Below, one piece after another: positions 1 through 28,440 of a stretch of 64,000 nucleotides of DNA (position 1 is its first letter; every line of letters starts with the position of its first letter). Position numbers and translations under genes: made by a program. This DNA comes from Thermomonas sp. (GTDB lineage Bacteria; Pseudomonadota; Gammaproteobacteria; Xanthomonadales; Xanthomonadaceae): positions 26,347-90,346 of the forward strand of contig JAIMKJ010000012.1 in NCBI GenBank assembly GCA_020692565.1, read 5' to 3'. Below the pieces are notes generated by a model. It saw only the letters and a list, made by a program, of their open reading frames with translations, searched no databases and was not told where the DNA came from.

Positions 1-1017
1 ATGTCTCTCTCCGGCCAAGGCTCGGCGCTGACGGTCGATTATGTCCAGGCAGGCACGCCGGACGCGTTGCTCACCAGCGATACCCTGGCGGTGTTCGGCT
101 TCGGCACCGACGCCCCGCACTGCGACGATCCCCGCTATCTGCGCATCCCGCTGCAGCCGTACGGCACCGCGCCGTTCGAACGCTGGCGCTGCGCCGCGCC
201 GGTCGAATTCGGCCGCAACGGCGACCCGATCGACGGTCAGATCCGCTGGTCCACCGACGGCCAGCTCACGTTCGGCGTGATCGAGATCGACGAGCCGCCG
301 GGGGACCACCCCGACCACAGCGACATCAGCGAAGCCGCCGAACGCGCCTACTCGCAACTGGTCGATTTCGTCTCCGGCAGCCGCACCCCGCATCTGCTGC
401 GGGTGTGGAACTACCTCGACGCCATCACCCAGGGCGACGGCGATACCGAACGCTACCGCCAGTTCTGCGTCGGCCGCGCCCGCGGCCTGGGCCGTTTCGA
501 TACCGTCGAGCTGCCGGCGGCGACCGCCATCGGCCGCTGCGACGGCCAGCGCACGCTGCAGGTCTATTGGCTGTCGGCCAACCAGCGCGGCACGCCGGTG
601 GAGAACCCGCGCCAGGTCAGCGCCTACCGCTACCCGCGGCAATACGGGCCGCAGTCGCCCAGTTTCGCCCGCGCGATGCTGCCGCCGCCCGGCAGCACCA
701 TGCCGCTGCTGCTGTCCGGTACCGCCAGCGTGGTCGGCCATGCTTCGCAGCACATCGGCGAACTGCTGGGCCAGATCGGCGAGACCTTCGCCAATTTCGA
801 CGCCCTGCTGGCCGAAGCGCGCCGCCACCAGCCGTCGCTGCCGGCCGGATTCGGCAGCGGCACCCGACTGAAGGTCTACGTGCGCGATGCCGACGACCTC
901 CCGCTGGTCGCCAAGGCGCTGGACGAACGCTTCGGCGCCAGCGTGCCGCGAGTGTTGCTGCACGCGGCGATCTGCCGGCGCGAGCTGGCGGTGGAAGTGG
1001 ACGGCGTACACGCCTGA
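1..1017 (+). CDS. xanB2: FkbO/Hyg5-family chorismatase (XanB2 type; hydroxybenzoate supply for xanthomonadin/aryl-polyene pigment)
   Basis: 338 aa with LLRVWNY, ENPRQVSAYRYPRQYGPQSPSFARA, LLLSGTAS and C-terminal ICRRELAVEVDG motifs of this family. Confidence 0.85.
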   Translation: MSLSGQGSALTVDYVQAGTPDALLTSDTLAVFGFGTDAPHCDDPRYLRIPLQPYGTAPFERWRCAAPVEFGRNGDPIDGQIRWSTDGQLTFGVIEIDEPPGDHPDHSDISEAAERAYSQLVDFVSGSRTPHLLRVWNYLDAITQGDGDTERYRQFCVGRARGLGRFDTVELPAATAIGRCDGQRTLQVYWLSANQRGTPVENPRQVSAYRYPRQYGPQSPSFARAMLPPPGSTMPLLLSGTASVVGHASQHIGELLGQIGETFANFDALLAEARRHQPSLPAGFGSGTRLKVYVRDADDLPLVAKALDERFGASVPRVLLHAAICRRELAVEVDGVHA

Positions 1018-1107
1018 ACCTCGACGCCGACGCTTGATTTCGCTGGCGCCGCATCCATCTTGACGTTGCCGGTCCGCACGTCCGCGGGCTTCGATGGGGA
1101 AACTGTC

Positions 1108-1353
1108 ATGGGTCTGATCAGTCTGCTCTGGGGCATCGTCGCGATGCTGTTGATGTTCCTCGGCCTGATTCCGCTGCTGGGTTGGCTGAATTGGCTGGTG
1201 ATTCCCTTCGCCGGCATCGGCGCGATCATCGCCGCGATCGGGATCATGTTTCGCGGCGAGAAAAGCCGGCGCGGCAAGGCCGGGCTGCTGCTCAACGGCA
1301 TCGTCATCGTGATCGCGGCGATCCGGCTCAGCATCGGTGGCGGATTCATCTGA
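1108..1353 (+). CDS. Small inner-membrane protein (81 aa)
   Basis: ATG at 1108 after GGGGA; three hydrophobic stretches (MGLISLLWGIV..., WLNWLVIPFAGIG..., GLLLNGIVIVIAAIRL). Confidence 0.75.
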   Translation: MGLISLLWGIVAMLLMFLGLIPLLGWLNWLVIPFAGIGAIIAAIGIMFRGEKSRRGKAGLLLNGIVIVIAAIRLSIGGGFI

Positions 1354-1383
1354 CGGCCTCCGCCGCTACCGTCCGCACCTGAA

Positions 1384-1550
1384 GAGCGGCCTTCAGGCCG
1401 CTTACTTGCTTGGGTACCGCCTGCCACATAAACGGCGAAGCCGGCCCGATAAGCCCGCGCCATCGTCGGAGACGGTGGCGCGCGCCGCGGGCGTGAGCCA
1501 AGAAAGCAGCTGCCGAGCTTCCGCGCTGCGCGCGGGTTACTTTCTTTGGC
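1384..1550. repeat. REP-like palindromic elements
   Basis: AGCGGCCTTCAGGCCGCT hairpin and GCCAAGAAAG...CTTTCTTTGGC inverted repeat between convergent genes. Confidence 0.5.
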
Positions 1551-1630
1551 GATCCAGTGGCTTTACATGCGACACACTGAAAATCTGTTTATCAAGATAA
1601 AGCCGTCGCGCATGAAGGATTGGCTCGGGA

Positions 1631-2487
1631 TCAATTCGCGGTCTCGTCGACCTTTGCCGGCACGATCCCCGCGGCGTCCACGATCCGCAGATCGCGGATC
1701 GCACGGTTGACGTCCGGAACGCCATCAAGGGCGCCATCGCCCACATACAGCGCGAGATGTCCCGCATCGAAGCGGCCGAGTCCGGCGTCGTAGCTCGTCC
1801 AACGCCTGCCGTCCCAGGCCTGCACCCAGACGTGCGGACTGAACACATGCGCTTGTCCGGTAAAACGGCTGGAATACGCGACGCCGTAGACCACCCGCGC
1901 CGGAATCCCCAGCGCGCGCGCCGATGCCGCCAGCAGCACCGCGTATTCGGTGCAGTCGCCGCCGCGAGTCTTGAGTGCGGTCAGCGCATCGTGGTAATCG
2001 CGATAGTCGATCGCGCCGGTCATGTGTTTCTGGATCGCGGTCACCAGCGCCTGCATGCGGGTGTGGATCGAGCCGCCGCGGGTGTGCTGGCGCGCGAAAT
2101 TGCGGATGCGGCGGTCGTCGCTCTGCACCCAGGCATTGGGCGCGAGATAGCGACGCAGCATCGCATCGGTGGGCGCCTGCTCGCGACCGCAGTCGTCGCA
2201 CATCCGCAGCGTGATGCCGTTCGCATCGATGGTCGCCTGCTGTTCGCCGGTCTGCGGCCAGGCCCATTCGCGCGACGATTCGAAACGCAGCCGGTAGCGG
2301 ATTTCGCCGCCGCGCGCCTGCGCCGACATCCGGTACGGCGATTTCACCAGCAGACCTTGGACGAACGCACGGGCCTGTTCGGTGGTCGGTCTTGGTGTCG
2401 ATTTCACGGTGCTTGCCGTCTGCGCTGAGACGTGGCCCGCGCACAACATCGCGGATAGAACGAGCATGCGGATCGCAGCGTCCGATC

Positions 2488-2491
<4 letters not shown>
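1631..2491 (-). CDS. Exported transglutaminase-like (TGase/cysteine-protease fold) protein
   Basis: Start MRSDAAIRMLVLSAML (signal peptide-like); triad motifs GDCTEYA, HVWVQAW, YDA; ATGA overlap with the upstream gene. Confidence 0.8.
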
Positions 2492-6068
<3,577 letters not shown>

Positions 6069-10911: not shown

Positions 10912-11032
10912 TAAAAAGCCCCGCAGGTGGGGGAACCGGCGGGGCTGGGAACGGGACTTGGGGAGAGTCTTACGTTCCGGCGACCACTCCAGGGGAGGGA
11001 GTGGTCTGCGACGGACGTTGCATCCGTCGCGA
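10912..11032 (-). ncRNA. sX13-like small RNA
   Basis: Downstream of polA on the same strand; three hairpins with C-rich loops (CUCCC, CUCCCCA, UUCCCCCA); the last is followed by a U tract, matching the described Xanthomonadaceae sX13 position and fold. Confidence 0.75.
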
Positions 11033-15558: not shown

Positions 15559-16290
15559 TCACGCCACCCGCGCGCACACCCAGGCATCCACCCGCCCTAC
15601 GCCCGCACGCAGCAGCGCGTCGGCAGCGGCGTGGAGGGTCGCGCCGGTGGTCATCACGTCGTCGACCAGCGCGACGTGCGCCGGCAGCGCGAGCCCCGGT
15701 CGCACCGCGAACGCGCGGCGCAGGTTGCGACGCCGGGCGGGGGCATCCAGTCGCGACTGCGGGGCGGTCTGGCGTACCCGCAGCAGCGCGTCGCCCCGCA
15801 GCGGCAGGCGCAATGCGTCGGCCAGCGGTCTGGCCAGTTCGAGCGCCTGATCGAAACCGCGGTCGCGCAGGCGGCCGGCGTGCAGCGGCAACGGGATCAG
15901 GGCGTCCGGCCGTTCGGCGTCGGCGAGGGCGGTGGCCATGAGCTCGCCGCAGAGCCGGCCGGCGGCGAGGTCGTTGTGGAACTTCAGTCGCGGCAGCAGC
16001 CGGTCCAGCGGGGTTTCGTAGCGGAACACCGCGCGGGTTTCGGTCAGCGGCGGCGGCCGGCGCTGGCAGTGGCCGCAGGCATCGGCCGGCAGCGGCAGCG
16101 GCAGGCCGCAGCGTAGGCAGGCGCTGCGGTTCCAGGGCAGGCTCCGGCCGCAGGCCGGGCACAGGGCCTGGCGGTCCGGTCCGCCGGCTTCGCCGCAGAC
16201 CAGACAATGCGCCGGCCACAGCCTGTCCAGCAGCCGGGTGAGACTTGGGCGGAGGCGTCGACGATAGACAAGGTTGACAGCGCTGTTCAT
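15559..16290 (-). CDS. comF: ComF family phosphoribosyltransferase-like protein
   Basis: Double zinc ribbon (CLVC, CPAC, CLRC, CGHC), [17 protein letters not shown]. Confidence 0.9.
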
Positions 16291-16339
16291 GCTTTCCAGA
16301 CTGCCTGTCCCGCTGCGCCGTGTCCGTCAGGAAACCCCG

Positions 16340-17428
16340 ATGCCTGCTGTCAGTCTTCCCGCACCCCCGCGCCACGATTGGAGCCGTACCGAGGTCGAGG
16401 CGCTGTTCGCGCTGCCGTTTCCGGTCCTGCTGCAGCGTGCGGGCGAAGTGCACCGGGACCATTTCGACCCCAGCGAGGTCCAGGTCAGCACCCTGCTGTC
16501 GGTGAAGACCGGCGGCTGCCCCGAGGACTGCGCCTATTGCCCGCAGGCCCAGCGTTACCACACCGGCGTCGAAGCCACCAAGCTGATGGACACCGATGCG
16601 GTGGTGGAGAAGGCGAAACAGGCCAAGGCCGCGGGCGCTTCGCGCTTCTGCATGGGCGCCGCGTGGCGCTCGCCGAAGGACCGCGATATCCCGAAGGTCG
16701 CCGCGATGATCAGCGAAGTGAAGGCGCTGGGGCTGGAAACCTGCGCCACGCTGGGCATGCTCAGCGGCGAACAGGCCACGGCATTGAAGGCCGCCGGTCT
16801 GGATTACTACAACCATAATCTGGACACCGCGCCGGAGTTCTACGGCGACATCATCCAGACCCGTGAACTGCAGGATCGCCTCGACACCCTCAGCCACGTG
16901 CGCGACGCCGGCATGAAGACCTGCTGCGGCGGTATCGTCGGCATGGGCGAGAGCCGCCGCCAGCGCGCCGGCCTGCTGCAGATGCTGGCGAACCTGCCGG
17001 CGCATCCGGATTCGGTGCCGATCAATCGGCTGGTGCAGGTGGAAGGCACCCCGCTGCACGGCACGACCGAACTGGACCCGTTCGAATTCGTCCGCACCAT
17101 TGCCGCGGCGCGGATCATGATGCCGAAATCGATGGTGCGGCTGTCCGCCGGCCGCGAAACGATGAGCGACGAGCTGCAGGCGCTATGCTTCCTCGCCGGC
17201 GCCAATTCGATCTTCTACGGCGAAAAGCTGTTGACCACGGGCAATCCCGACACCGAGCGCGACCTCGCGCTGTTCGAACGCCTCGGCCTGACGCCGATGG
17301 CGCTGGTGGAAACCGCCGGCACCGTGCATGCCGACATTCTCGATAACAGCAGCCTCGACACTCATCCTCCCGATACCACTGCCGCCGATGCCGGCGAGAC
17401 TTCACCTCCCTGCTTCCAAGCAGCCTGA
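16340..17428 (+). CDS. bioB: Biotin synthase
   Basis: [10 protein letters not shown] radical-SAM motif, [35 protein letters not shown]. Confidence 0.97.
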
Positions 17429-17455
17429 CCGCGCCGCCCGACCGAGCTGTCCGCC

Positions 17456-18657
<1,202 letters not shown>

Positions 18658-18661
<4 letters not shown>

Positions 18662-19077
18662 GGCCGGCCACGGCCCCTGTGGGAGCGGCGGAAGTCGCGA
18701 CTGACGACGACGCGCGCATCCCGGTCTGGAACGCGCTGTCGGATCTCTATCTCGATACCGATGTCGCGCTGTCGCATGCATACATCGTGCGCACGCTCGC
18801 GGCATCGCCGTATTCGCTGGATGAACTGCACGAGATGCTGATGTACGACGTGCATCCGGCGCTGTACCCGAATCTGATGAGCGTGGCCGGCGAATGGGCG
18901 GGCTTCGACGACGCCTGGCTGCTCGAACGCATCGCAACGATCCGCCGCCAGCCGCGCTGGCGTCGCCGCATCACCCACGGGTTCGCGCGCGACATCGGCG
19001 CGCAGTGGCGCACGCTCGAACCGATGATCCGCGCCGCGCGAAGCGCTGCACTGCCGGCATCCGCGCCGCAACCATGA
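18658..19077 (+). CDS. Hypothetical protein (DUF7079-like) inside the bio operon
   Basis: [15 protein letters not shown]...[17 protein letters not shown]; ATGA overlaps at both ends. Confidence 0.7.
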
Positions 19078-19883
19078 GCGAACGTCTGCACATGACCGTC
19101 AGCGGCGACGGCCCGCCGCTGGTGCTGCTGCACGGCTGGGCGATGCACGGCGGCGTGTTCGCCGCGCTGGTCGAGCGCCTGCGCGATCGACACACCTTGC
19201 ATGTGATCGACCTGCCCGGCCACGGCGGGAGTCGCGACGACATCACGCCGCTGGCCTTCGATGCGGTCTGCGACGCCATCCACGCGCAGACGCCGCCTGC
19301 ACCCTGGCTCGGCTGGTCGCTGGGCGGCATGTTCGCGCTGCATGCGGCGGTACGCGATCCCGCGCGGGTGCCGGCGCTGATCGCGCTGTGCAGCAGCCCG
19401 TGTTTCGTCCGCGGCGACGACTGGCGTTACGGCGTGTCGGCGGAGATCTTCCGCGATTTCGCCAAGGGCCTGAGCGACGACTATCGCGCCACGCTCGACC
19501 GCTTCGTCGCGCTGGAAGCCTTCGGCTCCGATCACGCGAAAGAAGAGATGCGCGAGCTGCGCGCCGAACTGTTCGCGCGCGGCGAGCCCGCGGCGCGCGT
19601 GCTCGTCGACGGCCTGCGCATTCTCGAAACCGTCGATCAGCGTCCGTTGCTGTCGCAACTGCGCGTGCCGAGTCTGTGGATCGCCGGCCGCCGCGACCGT
19701 CTGGTCGACCCGCGCGCGATGCGCGAAGCGGCCGCGATGATCGAACAGGCCGGACACGCGCCCGCGACCTTCGCGCAGATCGACCATGCCGGGCACGCGC
19801 CGTTCCTCACGCATGTCGATGAAGTCGTCGCGCACGTGTCCGCATTCCTGTCCGGCGTCTCGACAAGTCGCGCATCGCAATGA
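19074..19883 (+). CDS. bioH: Pimeloyl-ACP methyl ester esterase
   Basis: LHGWAMH, GWSLGG nucleophile, HAPFLTH; bio operon context. Confidence 0.93.
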   Translation: MSERLHMTVSGDGPPLVLLHGWAMHGGVFAALVERLRDRHTLHVIDLPGHGGSRDDITPLAFDAVCDAIHAQTPPAPWLGWSLGGMFALHAAVRDPARVPALIALCSSPCFVRGDDWRYGVSAEIFRDFAKGLSDDYRATLDRFVALEAFGSDHAKEEMRELRAELFARGEPAARVLVDGLRILETVDQRPLLSQLRVPSLWIAGRRDRLVDPRAMREAAAMIEQAGHAPATFAQIDHAGHAPFLTHVDEVVAHVSAFLSGVSTSRASQ

Positions 19884-20818
19884 CCGCACTGTTCGACCCG
19901 CGCCAGGTCCGTCGCGCCTTCTCGCGCGCGTCCGCCAGTTACGCTGATGCCGCGAAACTGCAGCGCGAAGTCGAATCGTGGCTGCTCGAATCGCTCGATT
20001 ACTACGCGGAAAACCGCGACGGCGATGCGCAGACACCGGCGCTCGTCGTCGATGTGGGCTGCGGCCCAGGCCACGCCTCGCGCGCATTGCAGCAGCGCTG
20101 GCCGAAAGCACAGGTGCTCGCGCTGGATCTCGCGCTGCCGATGCTGCGCCAGCACGATGTCGACACCTCGGCCTTCGCGCGCGCGCTGCCTGGCGCGTTC
20201 TCGCGTCTGCTCGCACGGACGCCGGCGCGCATCTGCGCCGACGCGCGCGCGCTGCCGCTCGCCGACCACAGCGTGGATCTGCTGTTCTCGAATCTCTGCC
20301 TGCAATGGATCGAAGATTTGCCGGCGGTGTTTGCCGGCTTCCGCCGCGTGCTCAAGCCCGGCGGCATGCTGGTGGTCTCCACCTTCGGCCCCGACACGCT
20401 GTACGAACTGCGCGGCGCCTTCGCCCAGGCCGATGCCGTGCCGCACGTCAGCCCGTTCGCGTCGATCGCGCAGTTCGGCGACGCGCTCATCGCCAGCGGC
20501 TTCCGCAACCCGGTGCTCGATCGCGACGAACTCACCACCCGCTACGCCGACCTGCCCGCACTGATGCGCGAACTCCGCGCCATCGGCGCCACCAACGCGC
20601 TGCACGCGCGTCGGCACACGCTCACCGGCAAGGCCCGCTTCGCTGCCGCTGCGAATGCCTACGAAACGTTCCGCGACAATGATCGACTGCCCGCGACGTG
20701 GGAAATCATCTCCGCGCTGGCGTGGGCGCCGGATCATGGCGTGCCGATCCGGGAAAGCGGGGAGGATGTGGCGAGGTTCCCGGCGAGTGGGATTCCGGTG
20801 AGGCGCAGGGTTGAGTAA
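19880..20818 (+). CDS. bioC: Malonyl-ACP O-methyltransferase
   Basis: RRAFSRA, DVGCGPG SAM motif, FSNLCLQW, FSTFGPDTLYEL-like segment. Confidence 0.93.
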   Translation: MTALFDPRQVRRAFSRASASYADAAKLQREVESWLLESLDYYAENRDGDAQTPALVVDVGCGPGHASRALQQRWPKAQVLALDLALPMLRQHDVDTSAFARALPGAFSRLLARTPARICADARALPLADHSVDLLFSNLCLQWIEDLPAVFAGFRRVLKPGGMLVVSTFGPDTLYELRGAFAQADAVPHVSPFASIAQFGDALIASGFRNPVLDRDELTTRYADLPALMRELRAIGATNALHARRHTLTGKARFAAAANAYETFRDNDRLPATWEIISALAWAPDHGVPIRESGEDVARFPASGIPVRRRVE

Positions 20819-20850
20819 ACGAGGCAGACTGCGCTTATCGTCGTCAGCCA

Positions 20851-20904
20851 TTGACGAGTCTTCGTTGACACCGTTGAATGTCTCGAATCAATATCCGGTA
20901 TCGC
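20851..20904 (+). promoter_or_regulatory. Promoter-like module, copy 1 (upstream of the cassette array)
   Basis: TTGACA at 20865 and CAATAT at 20889; near-identical copy at 22728-22781. Confidence 0.55.
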
Positions 20905-20937
20905 CCCTCGCATGGGGTCGAATAGGCGTTACGGCCC

Positions 20938-21252
20938 ATGAAAATTGTTGCAACAGCTGTAGTATTTTTACTCTTCGCTGGCTGCACTGGCACATATGAA
21001 ACTATGCCATTGCCTGAAGCAGGTACGGATTACTACACAGCCAGAGAGAAACTTATCGCTGCGGGTTGGCAACCTGCCCCAGCCAGATGCTCTGAACGCA
21101 ACATCTGTTTTAGTGATCTCCCTGAACTCGCCACCAATCTAGATACTGCATCTACATGTGGCATGTTCTTAAAGAGAAGTTCTTCTATTCGCGTGTGTGG
21201 CCAAGCAATACCAGACGGAATGCTCGTAAAGAATGCTCAGACTGGGCCCTAA
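20938..21252 (+). CDS. Cassette 1: hypothetical lipoprotein (104 aa)
   Basis: Lipobox FAGC; AREKLIAAGWQP motif; several Cys; TAA stop lies within attC1. Confidence 0.75.
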   Translation: MKIVATAVVFLLFAGCTGTYETMPLPEAGTDYYTAREKLIAAGWQPAPARCSERNICFSDLPELATNLDTASTCGMFLKRSSSIRVCGQAIPDGMLVKNAQTGP

Positions 21253-21358
21253 CAATTCGTTCAAGCCGACCCCATGTCGTGGCGTCGGTCATGTGCATAA
21301 GCTACGCTAGCACGCGTCCGCCGCCCCGCTGCGGGTCGGTTTAACTCAGGCGTTAGGC
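21247..21358 (+). repeat. attC site 1
   Basis: CCCTAAC...GTTCAAGCCGACCC...GGGTCGGTTTAAC...GTTAGGC; unpaired extra base in L''. Confidence 0.88.
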
Positions 21359-21362
21359 CCAC

Positions 21363-21800
21363 ATGGCAGAGCACATCATCCTTCCAACCGCTCGCACCAG
21401 GACCGCTGCGCTACTGAAGCTTGGCGCGTCAATTGCAGTTGTCGCCGGGCTGGTGTTGGCCGCTCGTCTGTATTCCACCCATCTCGCACCGCTTCCCACG
21501 TGCGCTCAGCTACCGTGGATTCGGTTGGTCGCTATCGTAGGCGCATTAGGGTTGCTCTCCCTCGCCGTTCTGTTCTACCGCAGCGGACTGAAAGTCTGGC
21601 GCTCTGGCCAGTTCCCCGCACCAGGCACGCCAGTCATCTTTGCTACCAAGGTTTCTACTGGCTGGTGGGCTCGCGCCAATGCAGTTACATTGCTCTTGCT
21701 CGCTGCCCTCTCGGCAGCAGGCTTTGCCCTCTGGTCTCAGTTCTTCGTCTTCTCGCAATTTGGGGCATATATTCTTGGGTTTCGCAGCTGTGGGGCCTGA
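21363..21800 (+). CDS. Cassette 2: hypothetical membrane protein (145 aa)
   Basis: Three hydrophobic segments; GQFPAPGT motif; TGA stop within attC2. Confidence 0.75.
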   Translation: MAEHIILPTARTRTAALLKLGASIAVVAGLVLAARLYSTHLAPLPTCAQLPWIRLVAIVGALGLLSLAVLFYRSGLKVWRSGQFPAPGTPVIFATKVSTGWWARANAVTLLLLAALSAAGFALWSQFFVFSQFGAYILGFRSCGA

Positions 21801-21854
21801 CAATTCATTCAAGCCGAAGCCGTTTCGCGGCGCGGCTTGATTCAGGCGTTAAGT
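21795..21854 (+). repeat. attC site 2 (60 bp)
   Basis: GCCTGAC...TTCAAGCCG...CGGCTTGA...GTTAAGT. Confidence 0.88.
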
Positions 21855-21897
21855 GCCTTTGTTACACTGCCAATATTCCTCAAACAGGAAACTTGCC

Positions 21898-22113
21898 ATG
21901 CCGACTGATAAAGCGAAGACAAACAGCAGCACTGGCGTTGGTATCGCTGTTGGTGTCGCCATTGGCGTAGCGCTCGGCGCAGCCTTTGATCAGCTTGCTC
22001 TGGGCATTGCCATCGGTACGGCATTCGGCGCTTCGATCGATGTCTTCTCTCACGTAAAGCGCAAGAAGAACATCAGCGCTGACTCTGAAATAGACTCAGA
22101 CGGTAAGAGGTAG
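21898..22113 (+). CDS. Cassette 3: small glycine-zipper membrane protein (71 aa)
   Basis: AGGA RBS; GVGIAVGVAIGVALGAA...LGIAIGTAFG GxxxG repeats. Confidence 0.75.
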   Translation: MPTDKAKTNSSTGVGIAVGVAIGVALGAAFDQLALGIAIGTAFGASIDVFSHVKRKKNISADSEIDSDGKR

Positions 22114-22132
22114 GGCACACTTCTTGGCCGGC

Positions 22133-22253
22133 GCCGAATACTATCGTTCAAGCCGCCCCCGTGTCGTAGCGCCGGTCACGTGCCTTCGCTACGCTGGCAC
22201 ATGCCTGTCATGTCCGACGCCCTCCGCAGGGCCACTCAACTCAGGCGCCAGGT
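22133..22253 (+). repeat. Decayed attC site 3
   Basis: GTTCAAGCCG and AACTCAGGC retained and interior resembles attC1, but core boxes are mutated (GCCGAAT, GCCAGGT). Confidence 0.7.
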
Positions 22254-22273
22254 CTCACGGATGAAATTACCGA

Positions 22274-22618
22274 ATGTCCAGGATTGAACTTGGTTGCCCT
22301 TCATGCTCGACCGCTGTTCTTCAACGACAACAGCGCCGAATGAATGGTTTTTTTGGGCTCCGATCTGTTCCTTGCAGCGGTTGTGGTCTGTTGCTGCAGT
22401 ATCACTCTTCACTTCTGCCTCGCCTGCGTTTCGGAGGCCACATATTCAGATTCGGGCTTCTGATCATTGCCGCATGGGTGACGCTGGAAGTTCTGGACGT
22501 GTTCTCAGCACGCGTCCTTGCCATTACCGCATGGACAGGCATCAGCGTTGTGCTGGCCGGTATTCTGTTGACCGCAACACGTCCAAGTTCTATCCGCGTG
22601 GAGGTCGTCAGCCACTAG
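22274..22618 (+). CDS. Cassette 4: zinc-ribbon plus two-TM hypothetical protein (114 aa)
   Basis: CPSC and CSGC pairs followed by two hydrophobic helices. Confidence 0.65.
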   Translation: MSRIELGCPSCSTAVLQRQQRRMNGFFGLRSVPCSGCGLLLQYHSSLLPRLRFGGHIFRFGLLIIAAWVTLEVLDVFSARVLAITAWTGISVVLAGILLTATRPSSIRVEVVSH

Positions 22619-22670
22619 TCAAGGCAAGGCTGAAAGCCGCAGCCGGGGCTCTTCGCAGAGATGTTCCCTG

Positions 22671-22710
22671 CGTCATCCCGGGTCCGCGCGTTGCACGGAC
22701 ACCGGGCTAC
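22671..22710. repeat. REP-like hairpin; related copy at 23286-23318
   Basis: CATCCCGGGT.CGCGCGTTGC...ACCGGGC shared by both copies. Confidence 0.55.
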
Positions 22711-22727
22711 GACTTGCGCGGTTGCCG

Positions 22728-22781
22728 TTGACGAGCCTTGATTGACACTTTTGAAGAGCACGGATCAATATCCGGCATCGC
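22728..22781 (+). promoter_or_regulatory. Promoter-like module, copy 2 (upstream of SnoaL-like gene)
   Basis: TTGACA at 22742 and CAATAT at 22766, same spacing as copy 1. Confidence 0.55.
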
Positions 22782-22843
22782 TTTATGGATAGCGCTGAAT
22801 CGGCGCGAGGCGCCATGAACCCCATCGAAGGTGAATCAACGCA

Positions 22844-23239
22844 ATGAACCCCCATCCGATCCAGACATGGCACCGGCTTGTCGCATCCGTCGATCCCTCC
22901 GGCCTGGATGAGCTCCTGGCCGACGATACCGTGTTCTTCTCGCCGATCGTCCATACGCCACAACGCGGCAAGGCGCTCGCAAAGGCCTATCTCGCTGCGG
23001 CTTTGCAGGTGTTTTCCAACCCGAGCTTTCGCTACGTGCGTGAGATCATCGGTCCCTCCGATGCGATGCTGGAATTCGAGACGGAGGTCGATGGGGTCCT
23101 GGTCAACGGGGTCGACATCATCAAGTGGAACGAATCGGGCAAGATCGTCGAGTTCAAGGTCATGCTCCGTCCGCTCAAAGCGATTGGACTGATCCACGAG
23201 CGCATGGGCGCCATGCTCGCGGCGAAGCACCCCGGGTAA
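22844..23239 (+). CDS. NTF2/SnoaL-like protein
   Basis: LLADDTVFFSPIVHTPQRGK, NGVDIIKWNESGKIVEFKVMLRPLKA. Confidence 0.88.
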   Translation: MNPHPIQTWHRLVASVDPSGLDELLADDTVFFSPIVHTPQRGKALAKAYLAAALQVFSNPSFRYVREIIGPSDAMLEFETEVDGVLVNGVDIIKWNESGKIVEFKVMLRPLKAIGLIHERMGAMLAAKHPG

Positions 23240-23526
23240 GGCCGAGGATCGCACCCTGGACTCTTCTGGGAGTTTGAACTTGCCCCATCCCGGGTGCGCG
23301 CGTTGCGTTTAACCGGGCGATGTCATCGCGCTCGCGTGAGCGCTGGCGAATGGCGTGCCGACCCGCGAAAGTCGTGAAGATGCGGCGAGGGTCCCGGCGA
23401 GTGGAATTGCGGTTCGGCGGCGTTGAATCCGATCCCGGATTGATCCCGAAGACCGTATTGCGCACGTAGCCGGCGACGAGCAAGCTCTTCCGCACAGGGC
23501 GCATGGGCCCATCGAGGACGGCGGTC

Positions 23527-24096
23527 ATGCAGACATCGTTCCAGAAGAAGCTCGCCACGATCGCGCAGGGCCAATACGACAGGTATCGCTTTCTGCGCGA
23601 GAACCAGGAGCCGCTCTCGACACAAATCAAGGCGTATTGGCGAGGCATCGGGCTGCCGTTTCCCGGCGTGGATGAGGCGTGGTCGGCGGTCTTCGTGTCG
23701 TGGTGCGTCAAGAATGCCGGGGCGACCGCTGCACAGTTCAAATTCTCGTCCGCGCATTCCCGCTTTGTCCACGCGGCAATCGCGAACGCGCAGTCCGGGA
23801 ATGGTGTTTTCCACGGGCGTCGCCCCTTGGAATACGCGCCTAAAACCGGCGACATCCTTCACAACAACCGTGCCGGAAATCGTTTCGACTTCGACTTCGC
23901 CAAAGCGAACAAGCAATACAAATCGCATTCGGCCATCGTCATCGAAGTCGGCACCGACAGTCGCGGCCGATATCTGCGCACCATCGGCGGCAACGAAGGC
24001 GATTCCGTCGGCATGAAGGAAGTGCGGTTGACGGCGCGCGGCCTGGTCAAGAACGGCGATGGCCTGTACATCGCCGTCATCGAAACGCTGCTTTGA
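23527..24096 (+). CDS. DUF2272 / CHAP-like putative peptidoglycan amidase
   Basis: AWSAVFVSWC, HSRFV, P..GDIL, SHSAIV, TIGGNEGDSV motifs. Confidence 0.7.
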   Translation: MQTSFQKKLATIAQGQYDRYRFLRENQEPLSTQIKAYWRGIGLPFPGVDEAWSAVFVSWCVKNAGATAAQFKFSSAHSRFVHAAIANAQSGNGVFHGRRPLEYAPKTGDILHNNRAGNRFDFDFAKANKQYKSHSAIVIEVGTDSRGRYLRTIGGNEGDSVGMKEVRLTARGLVKNGDGLYIAVIETLL

Positions 24097-24106
24097 GGAG
24101 AAGGCC

Positions 24107-24775
24107 ATGAAGCCCATGATCCAACGTGCGTTCCTGGCGCTGTTGTTGGCGACGCTGGGTGGTTGCGCGACCTTCCGCGGCGCCCCCGACCTGCCGTTCG
24201 AAAGCGGCAAGGTCTTCGGCAAAGACGAAACACAGAATGCGTTGAAGAAGCTTGCCTCCGGCGACCCGAATTTCGATGAGGCAACTCGCAATGAGCAGGT
24301 CATCAAACTCGTCGCCGCGATCGATCTGAGTTACGGTGATTTCAAGCAGCAGTTCATGGCCCAGCGCCAGCACGTGGGAAGTCTGTCCGACGCCTTGGTC
24401 CTGGCGATGACCGTTGCCGGGTCGTTGACAAATTCCGCAGGCGTCAAAGAGCACTATCTGCAAGGCATCGCATTGGTGCGTGGCGGAACCGAGAACTACG
24501 ACAAGAATTATCTGCTCACCCAGACGGTGCATGCGCTGGTCGCGCAGATGGATGCCAGTCGCAAACAGAAGCTGCAGGAAATCTACCAGAAGATGACCAA
24601 CAGCGATCTCGTGCAGTATCCGGCGATCGCGGCTTATAACGACGTGCTCGATTACTATCACGCCGGCACGGTGCTGGGGGCCATCCTTTCGATACAGGCA
24701 GACGCCAAACAGAAGGAAAACGAAGCGAACGCGTTGCTGAGCCCGATGCTGACTTCGGACAAGATCACGCGATAG
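24107..24775 (+). CDS. Hypothetical helical lipoprotein
   Basis: GAGGAG RBS 10 nt after the DUF2272 stop; lipobox LGGC; YP...DVLDYYHAGT motif. Confidence 0.8.
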   Translation: MKPMIQRAFLALLLATLGGCATFRGAPDLPFESGKVFGKDETQNALKKLASGDPNFDEATRNEQVIKLVAAIDLSYGDFKQQFMAQRQHVGSLSDALVLAMTVAGSLTNSAGVKEHYLQGIALVRGGTENYDKNYLLTQTVHALVAQMDASRKQKLQEIYQKMTNSDLVQYPAIAAYNDVLDYYHAGTVLGAILSIQADAKQKENEANALLSPMLTSDKITR

Positions 24776-24885
24776 GAATTGGCGTTTGTAGCGTGTGTTC
24801 CGCGGGATCGGTTTTCATGTTCGGCGATTCCGGTGCTGCAATATGCGCAGGACGCACGGCATGCAGCCCATCGATCGGTGCCGTC

Positions 24886-25311
24886 TCAACTCACCTGCGC
24901 GATCCAGTCCTGCAGGTTGTAGTGGTTCGTGACGCGCGCGATCCTGCCTTCATGGATGTCGAAGAACGCGCCGCCTGACAGCACGTACTTCTGGCCGTTC
25001 GCAGGCGGCAATCCGTCGTCGGCGACCAGGTATTCGCCATGCACGACATATTCGGCGGCGGCGCGGGCGCCGTCGGGCGAGGCCATCACCACGATGTCGC
25101 GCAGATGTTCGCGATAGCTGCGGTCCATGCGCGCGAGAAAAGCGGCGAAGGCGTCGCGGCCGGTTTCGCGCGTGCCCTGGTTGAGGTCGTGGGCCACGTC
25201 ATCGGTGAGGAGCGCCAGCATCGCGGCCCAATCGCCGCGGTTGAAGGCGGCGTAGTAGGCAAGGATGAGCGTGGTGGCGCGGTCGTGCGCGCGGGTACCG
25301 TCGATGATCAT
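24886..25311 (-). CDS. Ketosteroid-isomerase-related (SnoaL fold) protein
   Basis: YYAAFNRGDW..ML.LL..DVAHDLNQG, RITRVTNHYNL-like C-terminus. Confidence 0.85.
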   Translation of the reverse strand: MIIDGTRAHDRATTLILAYYAAFNRGDWAAMLALLTDDVAHDLNQGTRETGRDAFAAFLARMDRSYREHLRDIVVMASPDGARAAAEYVVHGEYLVADDGLPPANGQKYVLSGGAFFDIHEGRIARVTNHYNLQDWIAQVS

Positions 25312-28109: not shown

Positions 28110-28440
28110 ATCGCCGACCCCCGGCGGGGAAATCCGGATCCCCCCTGTTCCGCTCCCCGTCGGGCGTCGGCACCTAAGTCAGTAAGGCGCGGCGCACCCG
28201 TGTCTTTCCGGGACGCCCGGAACCCTCCCTCTTGAATCAGATATCGAACCTCTCGGGTCGATGGTGATCATGGGCGATGCGCGCGACTGTTCCGGATCGC
28301 GGACATCGGCAGATGAAAACACGCAGACAAAAAAAGGGGCCGAATGTCCCCCGACATTCGGCCCCTGGCTCCCTCAACGCGCACGTGGCCAGCCCTGTTC
28401 CACCCCGGCCTGCGCTTTCGCGCATGCCGCGCTGAGTGCC
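28110..28440 (-). ncRNA. Candidate sigma54-dependent sRNA locus with three GGAACAG-loop hairpins
   Basis: No convincing CDS; sigma54 promoter, intrinsic terminator at 28329-28365, repeated loop motif at 28145, 28287 and 28395. Confidence 0.55.
28329..28365 (-). terminator. Intrinsic terminator of the candidate sRNA
   Basis: GGGGCCGAATGTC/GACATTCGGCCCC 13-bp stem followed by 7 U on the minus strand. Confidence 0.85.

What the first reader, a model, noticed from the sequence alone, without database searches (positions are those of the whole stretch)
20851..22781. A 54-bp promoter module occurs twice, bracketing the cassette array
Seen: 20851-20904 TTGACGAGTCTTCGTTGACACCGTTGAATGTCTCGAATCAATATCCGGTATCGC and 22728-22781 TTGACGAGCCTTGATTGACACTTTTGAAGAGCACGGATCAATATCCGGCATCGC align without gaps at about 43/54 by eye. 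TTGACA, TCAATATCCGG and the spacing are conserved, while the spacer has drifted. Copy 1 ends 23 bp before the first cassette GTT; copy 2 precedes an unrelated SnoaL gene. Inference: a portable promoter acting as an integrase-independent Pc/attI-like expression platform, or the trace of a duplication that created the landing site.
Basis: partly seen in the sequence, partly recalled or inferred. Interest (0 to 1): 0.7.

Follow-up and report, generated by a model that had tools for sequence, protein, structure and literature searches.

The report
Integrase-less integron docking sites with promoter
The repeated 54-bp "promoter" is half of a ~110-bp copy of this bacterium's own integron docking site (attI) and cassette promoter: one intact copy with no integrase gene beside it heads the cassette array after the biotin operon, and one dead copy now appears to act only as the promoter of a fixed gene.

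Summary
The two 54-mers match at 43/54, and the similarity extends to about 96-110 bp.

The module is homologous to the promoter/attI region next to the genome's only integron integrase gene (intI), which lies on another contig. A profile built only from intI-adjacent regions of nine other species finds four sites in the 4.2-Mb genome: the canonical site, both window copies, and a third integrase-less copy that also heads a cassette array.

- **Copy 1 (20822-20930)** starts 4 nt after the bioC stop codon and ends in the G|TT crossover where cassette 1 begins. In related species, identity to the window stops at this point and unrelated cassettes follow. That pattern suggests IntI acts on it from its distant locus.
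- **Copy 2 (22711-22807)** carries GCG in place of GTT in every species examined. I read it as a dead attI kept as the SnoaL promoter.

"Integrase-independent" is not.

I class this as a new variant of a known kind: a cassette array without a neighbouring integrase (CALIN) that keeps its own minimal promoter-attI head.

The parts
19880..20818 (+). bioC, the last gene of the bioB-bioF-DUF7079-bioH-bioC operon. Its stop codon TAA is at 20816-20818, 4 nt before the module.
   Evidence: ORF list; Pfam families of the called genes.
20822..20930 (+). Module copy 1 (M1), an integrase-less Pc-attI paralogue. It has a left arm (20822-20864), -35 TTGACA (20865-20870), an 18-nt spacer, -10 CAATAT (20889-20894), an imperfect palindrome TATCGCCCC-N6-GGGGTCGAATA (20899-20924) and the core GCG|TTA with the crossover between G20928 and T20929.
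   Evidence: Sequence. Alignment to intI-adjacent attI regions. nhmmer with a canonical-only profile, E=3.7e-8. Homology to relatives ends at 20934-20937. Palindrome 94% paired.
20851..20904 (+). It is the promoter half of M1.
20929..21352 (+). Cassette 1. The ORF (20938-21252) encodes a 104-aa lipoprotein-like orphan. attC1 spans about 21246-21359, with R' GTT at 21352-21354.
   Evidence: No Pfam hit. A 76% homologue sits as a cassette in another species' array.
21353..21848 (+). Cassette 2. The ORF (21363-21800) encodes a 145-aa membrane-like orphan. The short attC2 spans about 21794-21855, with GTT at 21848-21850.
21849..22619 (+). Cassettes 3 and 4, fused. ORFs are at 21898-22113 (71 aa) and 22274-22618 (114 aa). 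The attC3 between them (about 22133-22254) is degenerate at both ends, with R' GCC at 22247-22249 instead of GTT.
22620..22710 (.). REP-like nested palindrome (D4a), a member of a repeat family dispersed through the genome. Conservation with relatives resumes here.
22711..22807 (+). Module copy 2 (M2), a decayed attI paralogue. It keeps -35 TTGACA (22742-22747) and -10 CAATAT (22766-22771). GCG at 22805-22807 replaces the GTT crossover triplet.
   Evidence: nhmmer E=0.0026. The same GCG is seen in all five species where I read M2 (G000, G251, G228, G030, G327); G312 has it too, in a 5'-truncated copy.
22728..22781 (+).
22815..23239 (+). Short uORF (22815-22847, MNPIEGESTQ*) overlapping the start of the SnoaL_2-family gene (22844-23239). 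M2 presumably transcribes both.
   Evidence: Conserved 86-92% in relatives.
23232..23322 (.). Second REP-like palindrome (D4b). Conservation with relatives ends at 23317.
23327..23419 (+). Displaced fragment of the bioC 3' end (A2), 81% identical to 20713-20805. The DUF2272 gene follows it, and in a more distant species (G324) that gene lies directly after bioC.

Best explanation
The 54-bp repeat is the promoter half of a module of about 110 bp. The module is a paralogue of the Pc-attI region, the cassette promoter plus docking site, of this genus's chromosomal integron.

**Shown:**
- The genome has one intact intI on another contig. Next to it lies a canonical TTGACA-18-CAGTAT ... CGCCCC-N6-GGGGTCGACTAAGCG|TTAGGC region.
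- The window's two copies, and a third copy elsewhere in the genome, are the only other genome-wide matches to a profile built from such regions of other species.
- Copy 1 sits 4 nt after the bioC stop codon, has no integrase or integrase remnant beside it, and ends in G|TT exactly where the first cassette starts.
- At least eight species of the genus carry this module after bioC. Four of them (G000, G251, G228, G333) keep an intact GTT core followed by attC-bearing cassettes, and G321 also keeps GTT.
- In the two relatives compared base by base (G251, G228), identity to the window stops at the crossover and unrelated cassettes follow.

**Inferred:**
- The single IntI acts in trans on this satellite attI, inserting and removing cassettes.
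- The module's own promoter transcribes the array. The predicted transcription start is near 20901, and the 5' leader contains a conserved hairpin or palindrome.
- Copy 2 is the same module with the crossover triplet mutated to GCG in all species examined. It can no longer recombine but keeps the -35 and -10 elements and their spacing. It now serves as the promoter of the SnoaL gene, plausibly a former first cassette frozen in place.
For: 1. Direct alignment of the window copies, the C61 copy and the intI-adjacent region shows shared blocks with identical spacing: TTGACA, GATCA(A/G)TAT, A-CG-CCCC, GGGG-CGA-TA and GCGTTA.
2. In an independent test, nhmmer with a profile from nine other species' intI-adjacent regions finds C6 (2.8e-22), C61 (7e-10), M1 (3.7e-8) and M2 (2.6e-3) in the whole genome. 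Nothing else scores below E=1.
3. The third copy, C61:905-1016, is followed by GTTAGCC, an ORF and classic attC sites.
4. Synteny: window 16000-20934 is 92.8% identical to G251 and 16000-20937 is 90.9% identical to G228. Between 20935 and about 22610 only an attC matches. Conservation then resumes at 22610-23317.
5. The module follows bioC in G000, G251, G228, G333, G312, G321, G327 and G305.
6. intI is full length, scores above the curated cut-off and is single-copy in 33 of 43 genus genomes.
7. attC1 in the window belongs to the same 114-nt attC family as the sites in the intI-linked array.
8. Cassette 1 has a 76% homologue that starts right after a GTTAGG in another species' array, so it is a mobile cassette.
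9. M2 carries GCG in all five species where I read it. A third dead copy (GCT) follows SnoaL in G327.
Against: - No transcription or recombination data exist.
- The consensus promoter scan reports no site in 20600-23600, because the -10 CAATAT matches only 3 of 6 positions, though these include A2 and T6.
- The two bases that distinguish the orphan core (CGAATAGGCGTTA) from the canonical core (CGACTAAGCGTTA) lie where an integrase-binding box would be expected. They could weaken IntI recognition.
- Cassette differences between species could have arisen by homologous replacement of whole arrays rather than by IntI acting at this site.
- G333 keeps an intact copy with cassettes but has no detectable intI.
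- In G312 the bioC-linked copies have lost GTT, so the site is not under universal constraint.
Confidence: 0.7

Rival explanations
1. Fossil of a second integron. The module is a true attI/Pc homologue left behind when a second integron lost its integrase, or when an attI-array block was moved. It is no longer used for recombination. The array is frozen, and differences between species come from old events or from homologous replacement through the conserved flanks.
For: - Loss of intI is a recognised route to CALINs (Cury et al. 2016, PMC4889954).
- attC3 is already degenerate, and cassettes 3 and 4 are fused.
- M1 has decayed in G312, G321 and G327.
- G333 has the platform but no intI.
- The whole block looks like an old insertion flanked by a duplicated bioC 3' end.
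Against: - There is no intI remnant. bioC abuts the module in every species, so the integrase-less state predates the species splits.
- The cassettes are nevertheless completely different in G000, G251, G228 and G333, and the break sits exactly at G|TT.
- A functional-looking IntI and matching attC sites are present in the same genome.
Confidence: 0.2
2. Portable promoter or regulator-binding repeat only. The module is a mobile promoter or operator cassette whose resemblance to attI is incidental. The cassettes entered at a secondary GTT site.
For: - A perfect -35 and fixed spacing are conserved while the spacer drifts.
- Copy 2 drives a non-cassette gene.
- IntI can insert cassettes at non-att sites (Loot et al., cited in the Xanthomonas preprint).
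Against: - Homology to the intI-adjacent region runs past the promoter, through the palindrome, to the crossover.
- Intact copies followed by attC cassettes all end in GCGTTA or ACGTTA at the cassette junction.
- The third copy also heads an array.
Confidence: 0.06
3. Simple local tandem duplication with no present function. M1 and M2 would be by-products of duplicating a [module-gene-repeat] unit.
For: - Two or three module copies lie in tandem at this locus in several species.
- A 72-nt repeat precedes M2 and follows SnoaL.
Against: - The 72-nt repeat is a dispersed REP-like family with at least 10 copies on other contigs, so it is not evidence of a tandem duplication.
- Both copies keep the promoter hexamers and spacing across species that are 8-10% diverged.
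- A copy on a different contig heads its own array.
Confidence: 0.04

Closest known systems
CALIN (cluster of attC sites lacking an integron-integrase; Cury et al. 2016, PMC4889954)
   Same: - The array has at least two good attC sites and no intI within tens of kb.
- It sits at a conserved chromosomal position, like the CALINs reported next to lamG, secF and recD in Xanthomonas (bioRxiv 10.1101/2025.06.18.660453).
   Different: - CALINs are defined without reference to attI or Pc. IntegronFinder annotates attI only for classes 1-3, and the paper states that attI is unknown for most integrons.
- This array retains a recognisable Pc-attI head homologous to the genome's own integron.
- The array begins at that head's G|TT.
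Canonical sedentary chromosomal integron platform (intI-PintI/Pc-attI), as in Xanthomonas or Vibrio
   Same: - The order is the same: promoter, palindrome, GTT crossover, then the first cassette.
- The attC family is the same as in the intI-linked array.
- Sequences are homologous to the intI-adjacent region.
   Different: - There is no adjacent intI, no PintI region and no intI pseudogene.
- Only about 70 bp, from the -35 to the crossover, is shared with the canonical region.
- The roughly 40-bp left arm is specific to the orphan copies.
- Two core bases differ: CGAATAGG versus CGACTAAG.
Delta-attI-type cassettes and attI-X-attI architectures in mobile integrons (Gonzales Machuca et al. 2026, PMC12901181)
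   Same: A stretch of array is bracketed by two attI-derived sites. That paper reports that identical flanking sites make a segment extremely excision-prone. This fits the survival here of one live and one dead copy.
   Different: - Those sites lie in class 1/2 mobile integrons with an adjacent intI, and IntI1 recombines them experimentally.
- Here the platform is chromosomal and integrase-less.
- The downstream copy lacks GTT in all species examined.
Off-target (attG or secondary-site) cassette insertion by IntI (Loot et al., cited; bioRxiv 10.1101/2022.09.11.507474, listed)
   Same: Cassettes lie away from the integron, and an integrase encoded elsewhere is responsible.
   Different: Secondary sites are short, degenerate and scattered. 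Here the target is a conserved structured module of about 110 bp, homologous to attI and with its own promoter.

Membership tests
Integron attI site | Sequence homology to the attI region next to the cognate intI | tested here: met
   A profile from nine other species' intI-adjacent regions hits M1 at E=3.7e-8, the C61 copy at 7e-10 and M2 at 2.6e-3. These are the only non-canonical hits in 4.2 Mb. Alignment.
Integron attI site | G|TT crossover at the junction with the first cassette | tested here: met
   M1 has GCG|TTA at 20926-20931. Identity to relatives ends here and unrelated cassettes follow. M2 has GCG at the same place, so the feature is not met for copy 2.
Integron attI site | Located directly beside intI | tested here: not met
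   bioC ends 4 nt upstream. The only intI is on contig C6. No intI fragments lie near the window copy or the C61 copy.
Integron attI site | Bound and recombined with attC by IntI | not testable with these tools
   Only comparative evidence is available: species-specific cassettes behind a conserved integrase-less site.
Pc cassette promoter | Sigma-70 -35 and -10 hexamers upstream of attI, oriented into the array | tested here: inconclusive
   TTGACA (6/6), an 18-nt spacer and CAATAT (3/6, with A2 and T6) are invariant in position across 16 paralogues and orthologues. The consensus scan calls no promoter at its threshold.
Pc cassette promoter | Mapped transcription start or promoter activity | not testable with these tools
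CALIN | At least two attC sites with no integron-integrase nearby | tested here: met
   attC1 and attC2 are intact and attC3 is degenerate. No intI lies in the window or on its contig.
Complete integron | intI plus attC sites in one locus | tested here: not met
   the only intI is on contig C6.
attI-X-attI (Delta-attI-type) cassette | Two recombination-competent attI-derived sites flanking the segment | tested here: not met
   The downstream copy lacks the GTT triplet in all species examined.

The most novel reading that the evidence does not exclude
A 'distributed integron'. One chromosomal IntI would serve several dispersed, minimal (about 110 bp) Pc-attI satellites planted directly behind housekeeping operons. 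This genome has three live platforms: the canonical one, the one after bioC, and the one on C61. Each would capture and express its own cassettes. Satellites that lose the GTT triplet, such as copy 2 here and a third copy in G327, would be domesticated as ordinary promoters of the gene they trapped. That would be a visible route from mobile cassette to fixed chromosomal gene. It would also mean that many CALINs are active satellite platforms rather than debris.
Probability: 0.45. Interest if true: 0.72.

Novelty: new variant of a known kind. Interest (0 to 1): 0.6.

Why it matters
Cassette arrays without an integrase (CALINs) are common, but their origin and activity are unresolved. Standard tools cannot recognise attI outside classes 1-3, so nobody routinely asks whether a CALIN still has a docking site and a promoter.

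This locus gives a concrete, testable case:
- The satellite attI/Pc is related by sequence to the cognate integron.
- It is conserved behind bioC across species that carry different cassettes.
- Live and dead copies sit side by side.

If IntI works on it in trans, the functional unit of a chromosomal integron is larger than the intI-linked array, and cassettes in satellite arrays are expressed from their own promoter. The dead copy in front of SnoaL would illustrate how a captured gene becomes a fixed gene with a ready-made promoter.

The same method could be applied to any integron-bearing genome: build an attI profile from intI-adjacent regions, then scan the heads of CALINs.

Tried and rejected
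- **Pattern scan of genome contigs** with TTGACA-N16-ATCAATATCC. The pattern was too unspecific.
- **Rfam on the whole window**. Nothing matched in 20800-23400. It found only sX13, asX1 and a tRNA elsewhere, which place the genome in Xanthomonadaceae.
- **Consensus promoter scan**. It made no call because the -10 matches only 3 of 6 positions.
- **A third, degenerate module copy after the displaced bioC fragment** (23420-23500). Neither the alignment nor the profiles support it. That stretch is instead orthologous to the bioC-DUF2272 spacer of G324.
- **The 72-nt repeat D4 as an attC or as proof of a tandem duplication.** It folds as a nested palindrome with TAAG/CTTA ends. It is, however, a dispersed REP-like family with at least 10 copies on other contigs, so both ideas were rejected.
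- **Covariation in the conserved palindrome**. It is 94-95% paired but shows only one compensatory pair, probably from a single event. This cannot separate a protein-binding inverted repeat from an RNA or DNA hairpin.
- **Origin of the C61 copy**. The flank is a nest of insertions with duplicated gene 3' ends and a scaffold gap, and no empty site was recovered.
- **Family-wide searches**. The orphan type was found only in this genus. Other genera gave only weak matches (best E=6e-7).
Full report
**Observation.** Their first 21 nt occur twice in the window, against 0.01 expected from shuffles. The repeat is longer than reported. It is 71% identical over 96 nt (20847-20942 versus 22724-22819), and a weaker left arm reaches 20822 and about 22711. 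The bioC-module-cassette 1 junction is identical (454/454) in Logan contigs from three sequencing runs, which break inside the first attC.

**Context.** The window comes from a Xanthomonadaceae genome of about 70% GC (Rfam sX13 and asX1; composition).
- bioB, bioF, a DUF7079 gene, bioH and bioC end at 20818.
- A lower-GC island (50-63%) runs from about 20820 to 24900.
- Behind copy 1 lie four small orphan ORFs with no Pfam hit above a family's cut-off.
- They are separated by two good attC sites (R' GTT at 21352-21354 and 21848-21850) and one attC degenerate at both ends (GCC at 22247-22249).

**What the module is.** The genome holds one full-length integron integrase on contig C6: TIGR02249 at 487 bits over positions 1-314 with no stops, plus Pfam Phage_integrase and SAM_4.
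- The intergenic region between that intI and its first cassette reads TGATTGACA-N18-CAGTATTCTTTACCGCCCC-GTATTT-GGGGTCGACTAAGCG|TTAGGC.
- The window copies align to it, and to the intI-adjacent regions of eight other species. Invariant blocks are TTGACA, ATCA-TAT, A-CG, CGA-T and CG--A, with identical spacing.
- To avoid circularity I built an nhmmer profile from nine intI-adjacent regions of other species only and searched the whole 4.23-Mb genome.
- Hits were the canonical C6 site (2.8e-22), a site on contig C61 (7e-10), window 20865-20931 (3.7e-8) and window 22739-22800 (2.6e-3). Nothing else scored below E=1.
- The repeat is therefore a paralogue of the integron's promoter-attI region.
- Only the stretch of about 70 bp from the -35 to the crossover is shared with the canonical region. 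The left arm of about 40 bp (AGGCAGAC...GCCATTGACGAG) is specific to the integrase-less copies.

C61:905-1016 is 81-82% identical to copy 1, left arm included. It runs straight into GCG|TTAGCC, an ORF and classic 113-nt attC sites. No integrase fragment lies near it or near the window copy.

**Comparative anatomy.**
- The genus has 43 species genomes in the collection, and 33 carry one intI.
- A sequence-only covariance model of the module finds several copies per genome in a sub-clade: G000, G228, G251, G312 and G327 have four each, and G333 has three with no intI.
- The module follows bioC in G000, G251, G228, G333, G312, G321, G327 and G305.
- Window 16000-20934 is 92.8% identical to G251, and 16000-20937 is 90.9% identical to G228.
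- Identity stops within a few bases of the G20928|T20929 crossover. Between there and about 22610 only an attC matches. Conservation resumes at 22610-23317, lapses again, and returns from 24885.
- The first cassettes differ in G000, G251, G228, G333 and C61.
- None of the four window cassettes occurs elsewhere in the genus, except a 76% homologue of cassette 1. That homologue sits right after a GTTAGG in the array of G200.
- attC1 of the window belongs to the same 114-nt attC family as the intI-linked array.
- bioC abuts the module in all these species, so the integrase-less state is older than their divergence, yet the cassettes are species-specific. The simplest reading is that IntI, encoded elsewhere, works on this site in trans.
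- This is inference. Replacement of whole arrays by homologous recombination through the conserved flanks is not excluded.
- The site has decayed in some lineages: CTT or GTC in G312, weak hexamers in G321, truncation in G327.

**Copy 2.**
- In all five species where I read it (G000, G251, G228, G030, G327), and in a 5'-truncated copy in G312, the copy in front of SnoaL has GGCGCGAGGCG where GGCGTTAGGCN is expected. GCG sits at 22805-22807 in the window.
- It keeps TTGACA, the 18-nt spacing, CAATAT and a compensated palindrome (GCCCT...AGGGC).
- What follows, GAGGCGCCATGAACCCC, looks like a typical cassette start with the TT replaced.
- I read it as an attI that trapped SnoaL and then lost its crossover, surviving as that gene's promoter. 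G327 has a further dead copy (GCT) after SnoaL, in front of a lipoprotein gene.
- The array is therefore not bracketed by two equivalent sites.
- A useful parallel comes from mobile integrons. Segments flanked by two identical attI sites are reported to excise at very high frequency (PMC12901181), so one live and one dead copy would be the stable arrangement.

**Promoter.** The -35 is perfect. The -10 CAATAT matches 3 of 6 positions (A2, A5, T6), and the spacing is 18 nt. The hexamers and spacing are fixed in 16 sequences while the spacer drifts. Promoter function is therefore probable but unproven. A conserved imperfect palindrome (20899-20924) is 94% paired but has only one compensatory pair. 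It could be an integrase-binding inverted repeat or a 5'-leader hairpin.

**Duplications around the block.**
- The 72-nt repeat that precedes copy 2 and follows SnoaL folds as a nested palindrome. It is a dispersed REP-like family with at least 10 copies on other contigs. It is neither an attC nor evidence for a tandem duplication.
- A real duplication exists: 23327-23419 is an 81% copy of the bioC 3' end.
- In the more distant G324, bioC is followed directly by the DUF2272 gene, which follows this fragment in the window.
- The fragment is thus the displaced original bioC end. The 2.6-kb block (module, cassettes, copy 2, SnoaL) is an old insertion that brought a replacement bioC end. How it was inserted is unknown.

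**Comparison with what is known.**
- The array meets the CALIN definition, and CALINs at conserved loci are reported in Xanthomonas.
- Cury et al. list loss of intI, secondary-site insertion and rearrangement as possible origins. They note that attI is unknown for most integrons, so it is not searched for.
- A full-text search for 'orphan attI' found nothing.
- I therefore class this as a new variant of a known kind: a CALIN that keeps a minimal, sequence-recognisable Pc-attI head, present in several copies per genome, with live and dead versions.
- Earlier unchecked notes of this scan describe similar integrase-less attI sites in other genomes (e1-701435, e1-5224666) and the same module in another genome (e1-4214168). 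I treat them as leads, not support.

**Verdict.**
- Confidence in homology to attI is about 0.9.
- Confidence in the full functional statement (IntI acting in trans plus promoter activity) is about 0.7.

Noticed in passing
window 22620-22710 and 23232-23322: A nested palindromic repeat of about 95 nt (ends GTAGCCCGGGTAAG...CTTACCCGGGCTAC, inner GCACCCGGG/CCCGGGTGC) sits just after stop codons. At least 10 further copies lie on other contigs (C11, C22, C23, C31, C38, C45, C53 twice, C57, C60). It looks like a REP/MITE-like family. Both variable segments of this locus start or end at a copy.
   Followed up: partly
window 23327-23419 (with 20713-20805): A displaced fragment of the bioC 3' end, 81% identical, is followed by the DUF2272 and lipoprotein genes. 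In G324 bioC is followed directly by DUF2272. The attI-cassette-SnoaL block is therefore an insertion that replaced the end of bioC. G312 has a similar bioC fragment plus module on a different contig from bioC (L214, rc 3933-4140).
   Followed up: partly
window 22133-22254: The third attC is degenerate at both ends (R'' GAATACTATCG, R' GCC instead of GTT). Cassettes 3 and 4 are therefore fused and probably immobile.
   Followed up: no
window 22815-22847: A 10-codon uORF (MNPIEGESTQ*) overlaps the SnoaL start codon (ATGA). It is conserved in relatives and begins with the same ATGAACCC as SnoaL itself.
   Followed up: no
L011 (G000:C61) 1000-4840: The flank of the third module copy is a nest of insertions with duplicated gene 3' ends. 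A copy of about 430 nt of the end of a 484-aa orphan gene lies directly before the module and contains a 33-N scaffold gap. A 118-nt segment that is 83-97% conserved in nearly all genus genomes occurs twice (C61:4722-4837 and about 2356-2474).
   Followed up: partly
L224 (G200:C58), rc 200-310 and 900-985; rc 706-903 and 1742-1930: This species has no detectable intI. Its cassette array contains two copies of a unit of about 110 nt ending in GACATAAGGCGTTAG, possibly another attI-like or attC-like head. It also contains two copies of a GC-rich element of about 190 nt inserted at cassette ends.
   Followed up: no
L218 (G327:C186) 2200-3100: A third module copy with a dead core (GGCGCTA) and weakened -35 (TTGAAA) follows SnoaL and precedes a lipoprotein gene. 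That gene is again closed by a REP-like palindrome.
   Followed up: partly
G333 (L216, C4): This species carries the bioC-linked module with intact GTT, attC cassettes and copy 2, but no intI was found at E<=1e-30.
   Followed up: no
window 28330-28438 and 10912-11019: Rfam matches above gathering score to the Xanthomonadaceae sRNAs asX1 (84.9 bits) and sX13 (61.1 bits), both on the minus strand.
   Followed up: no
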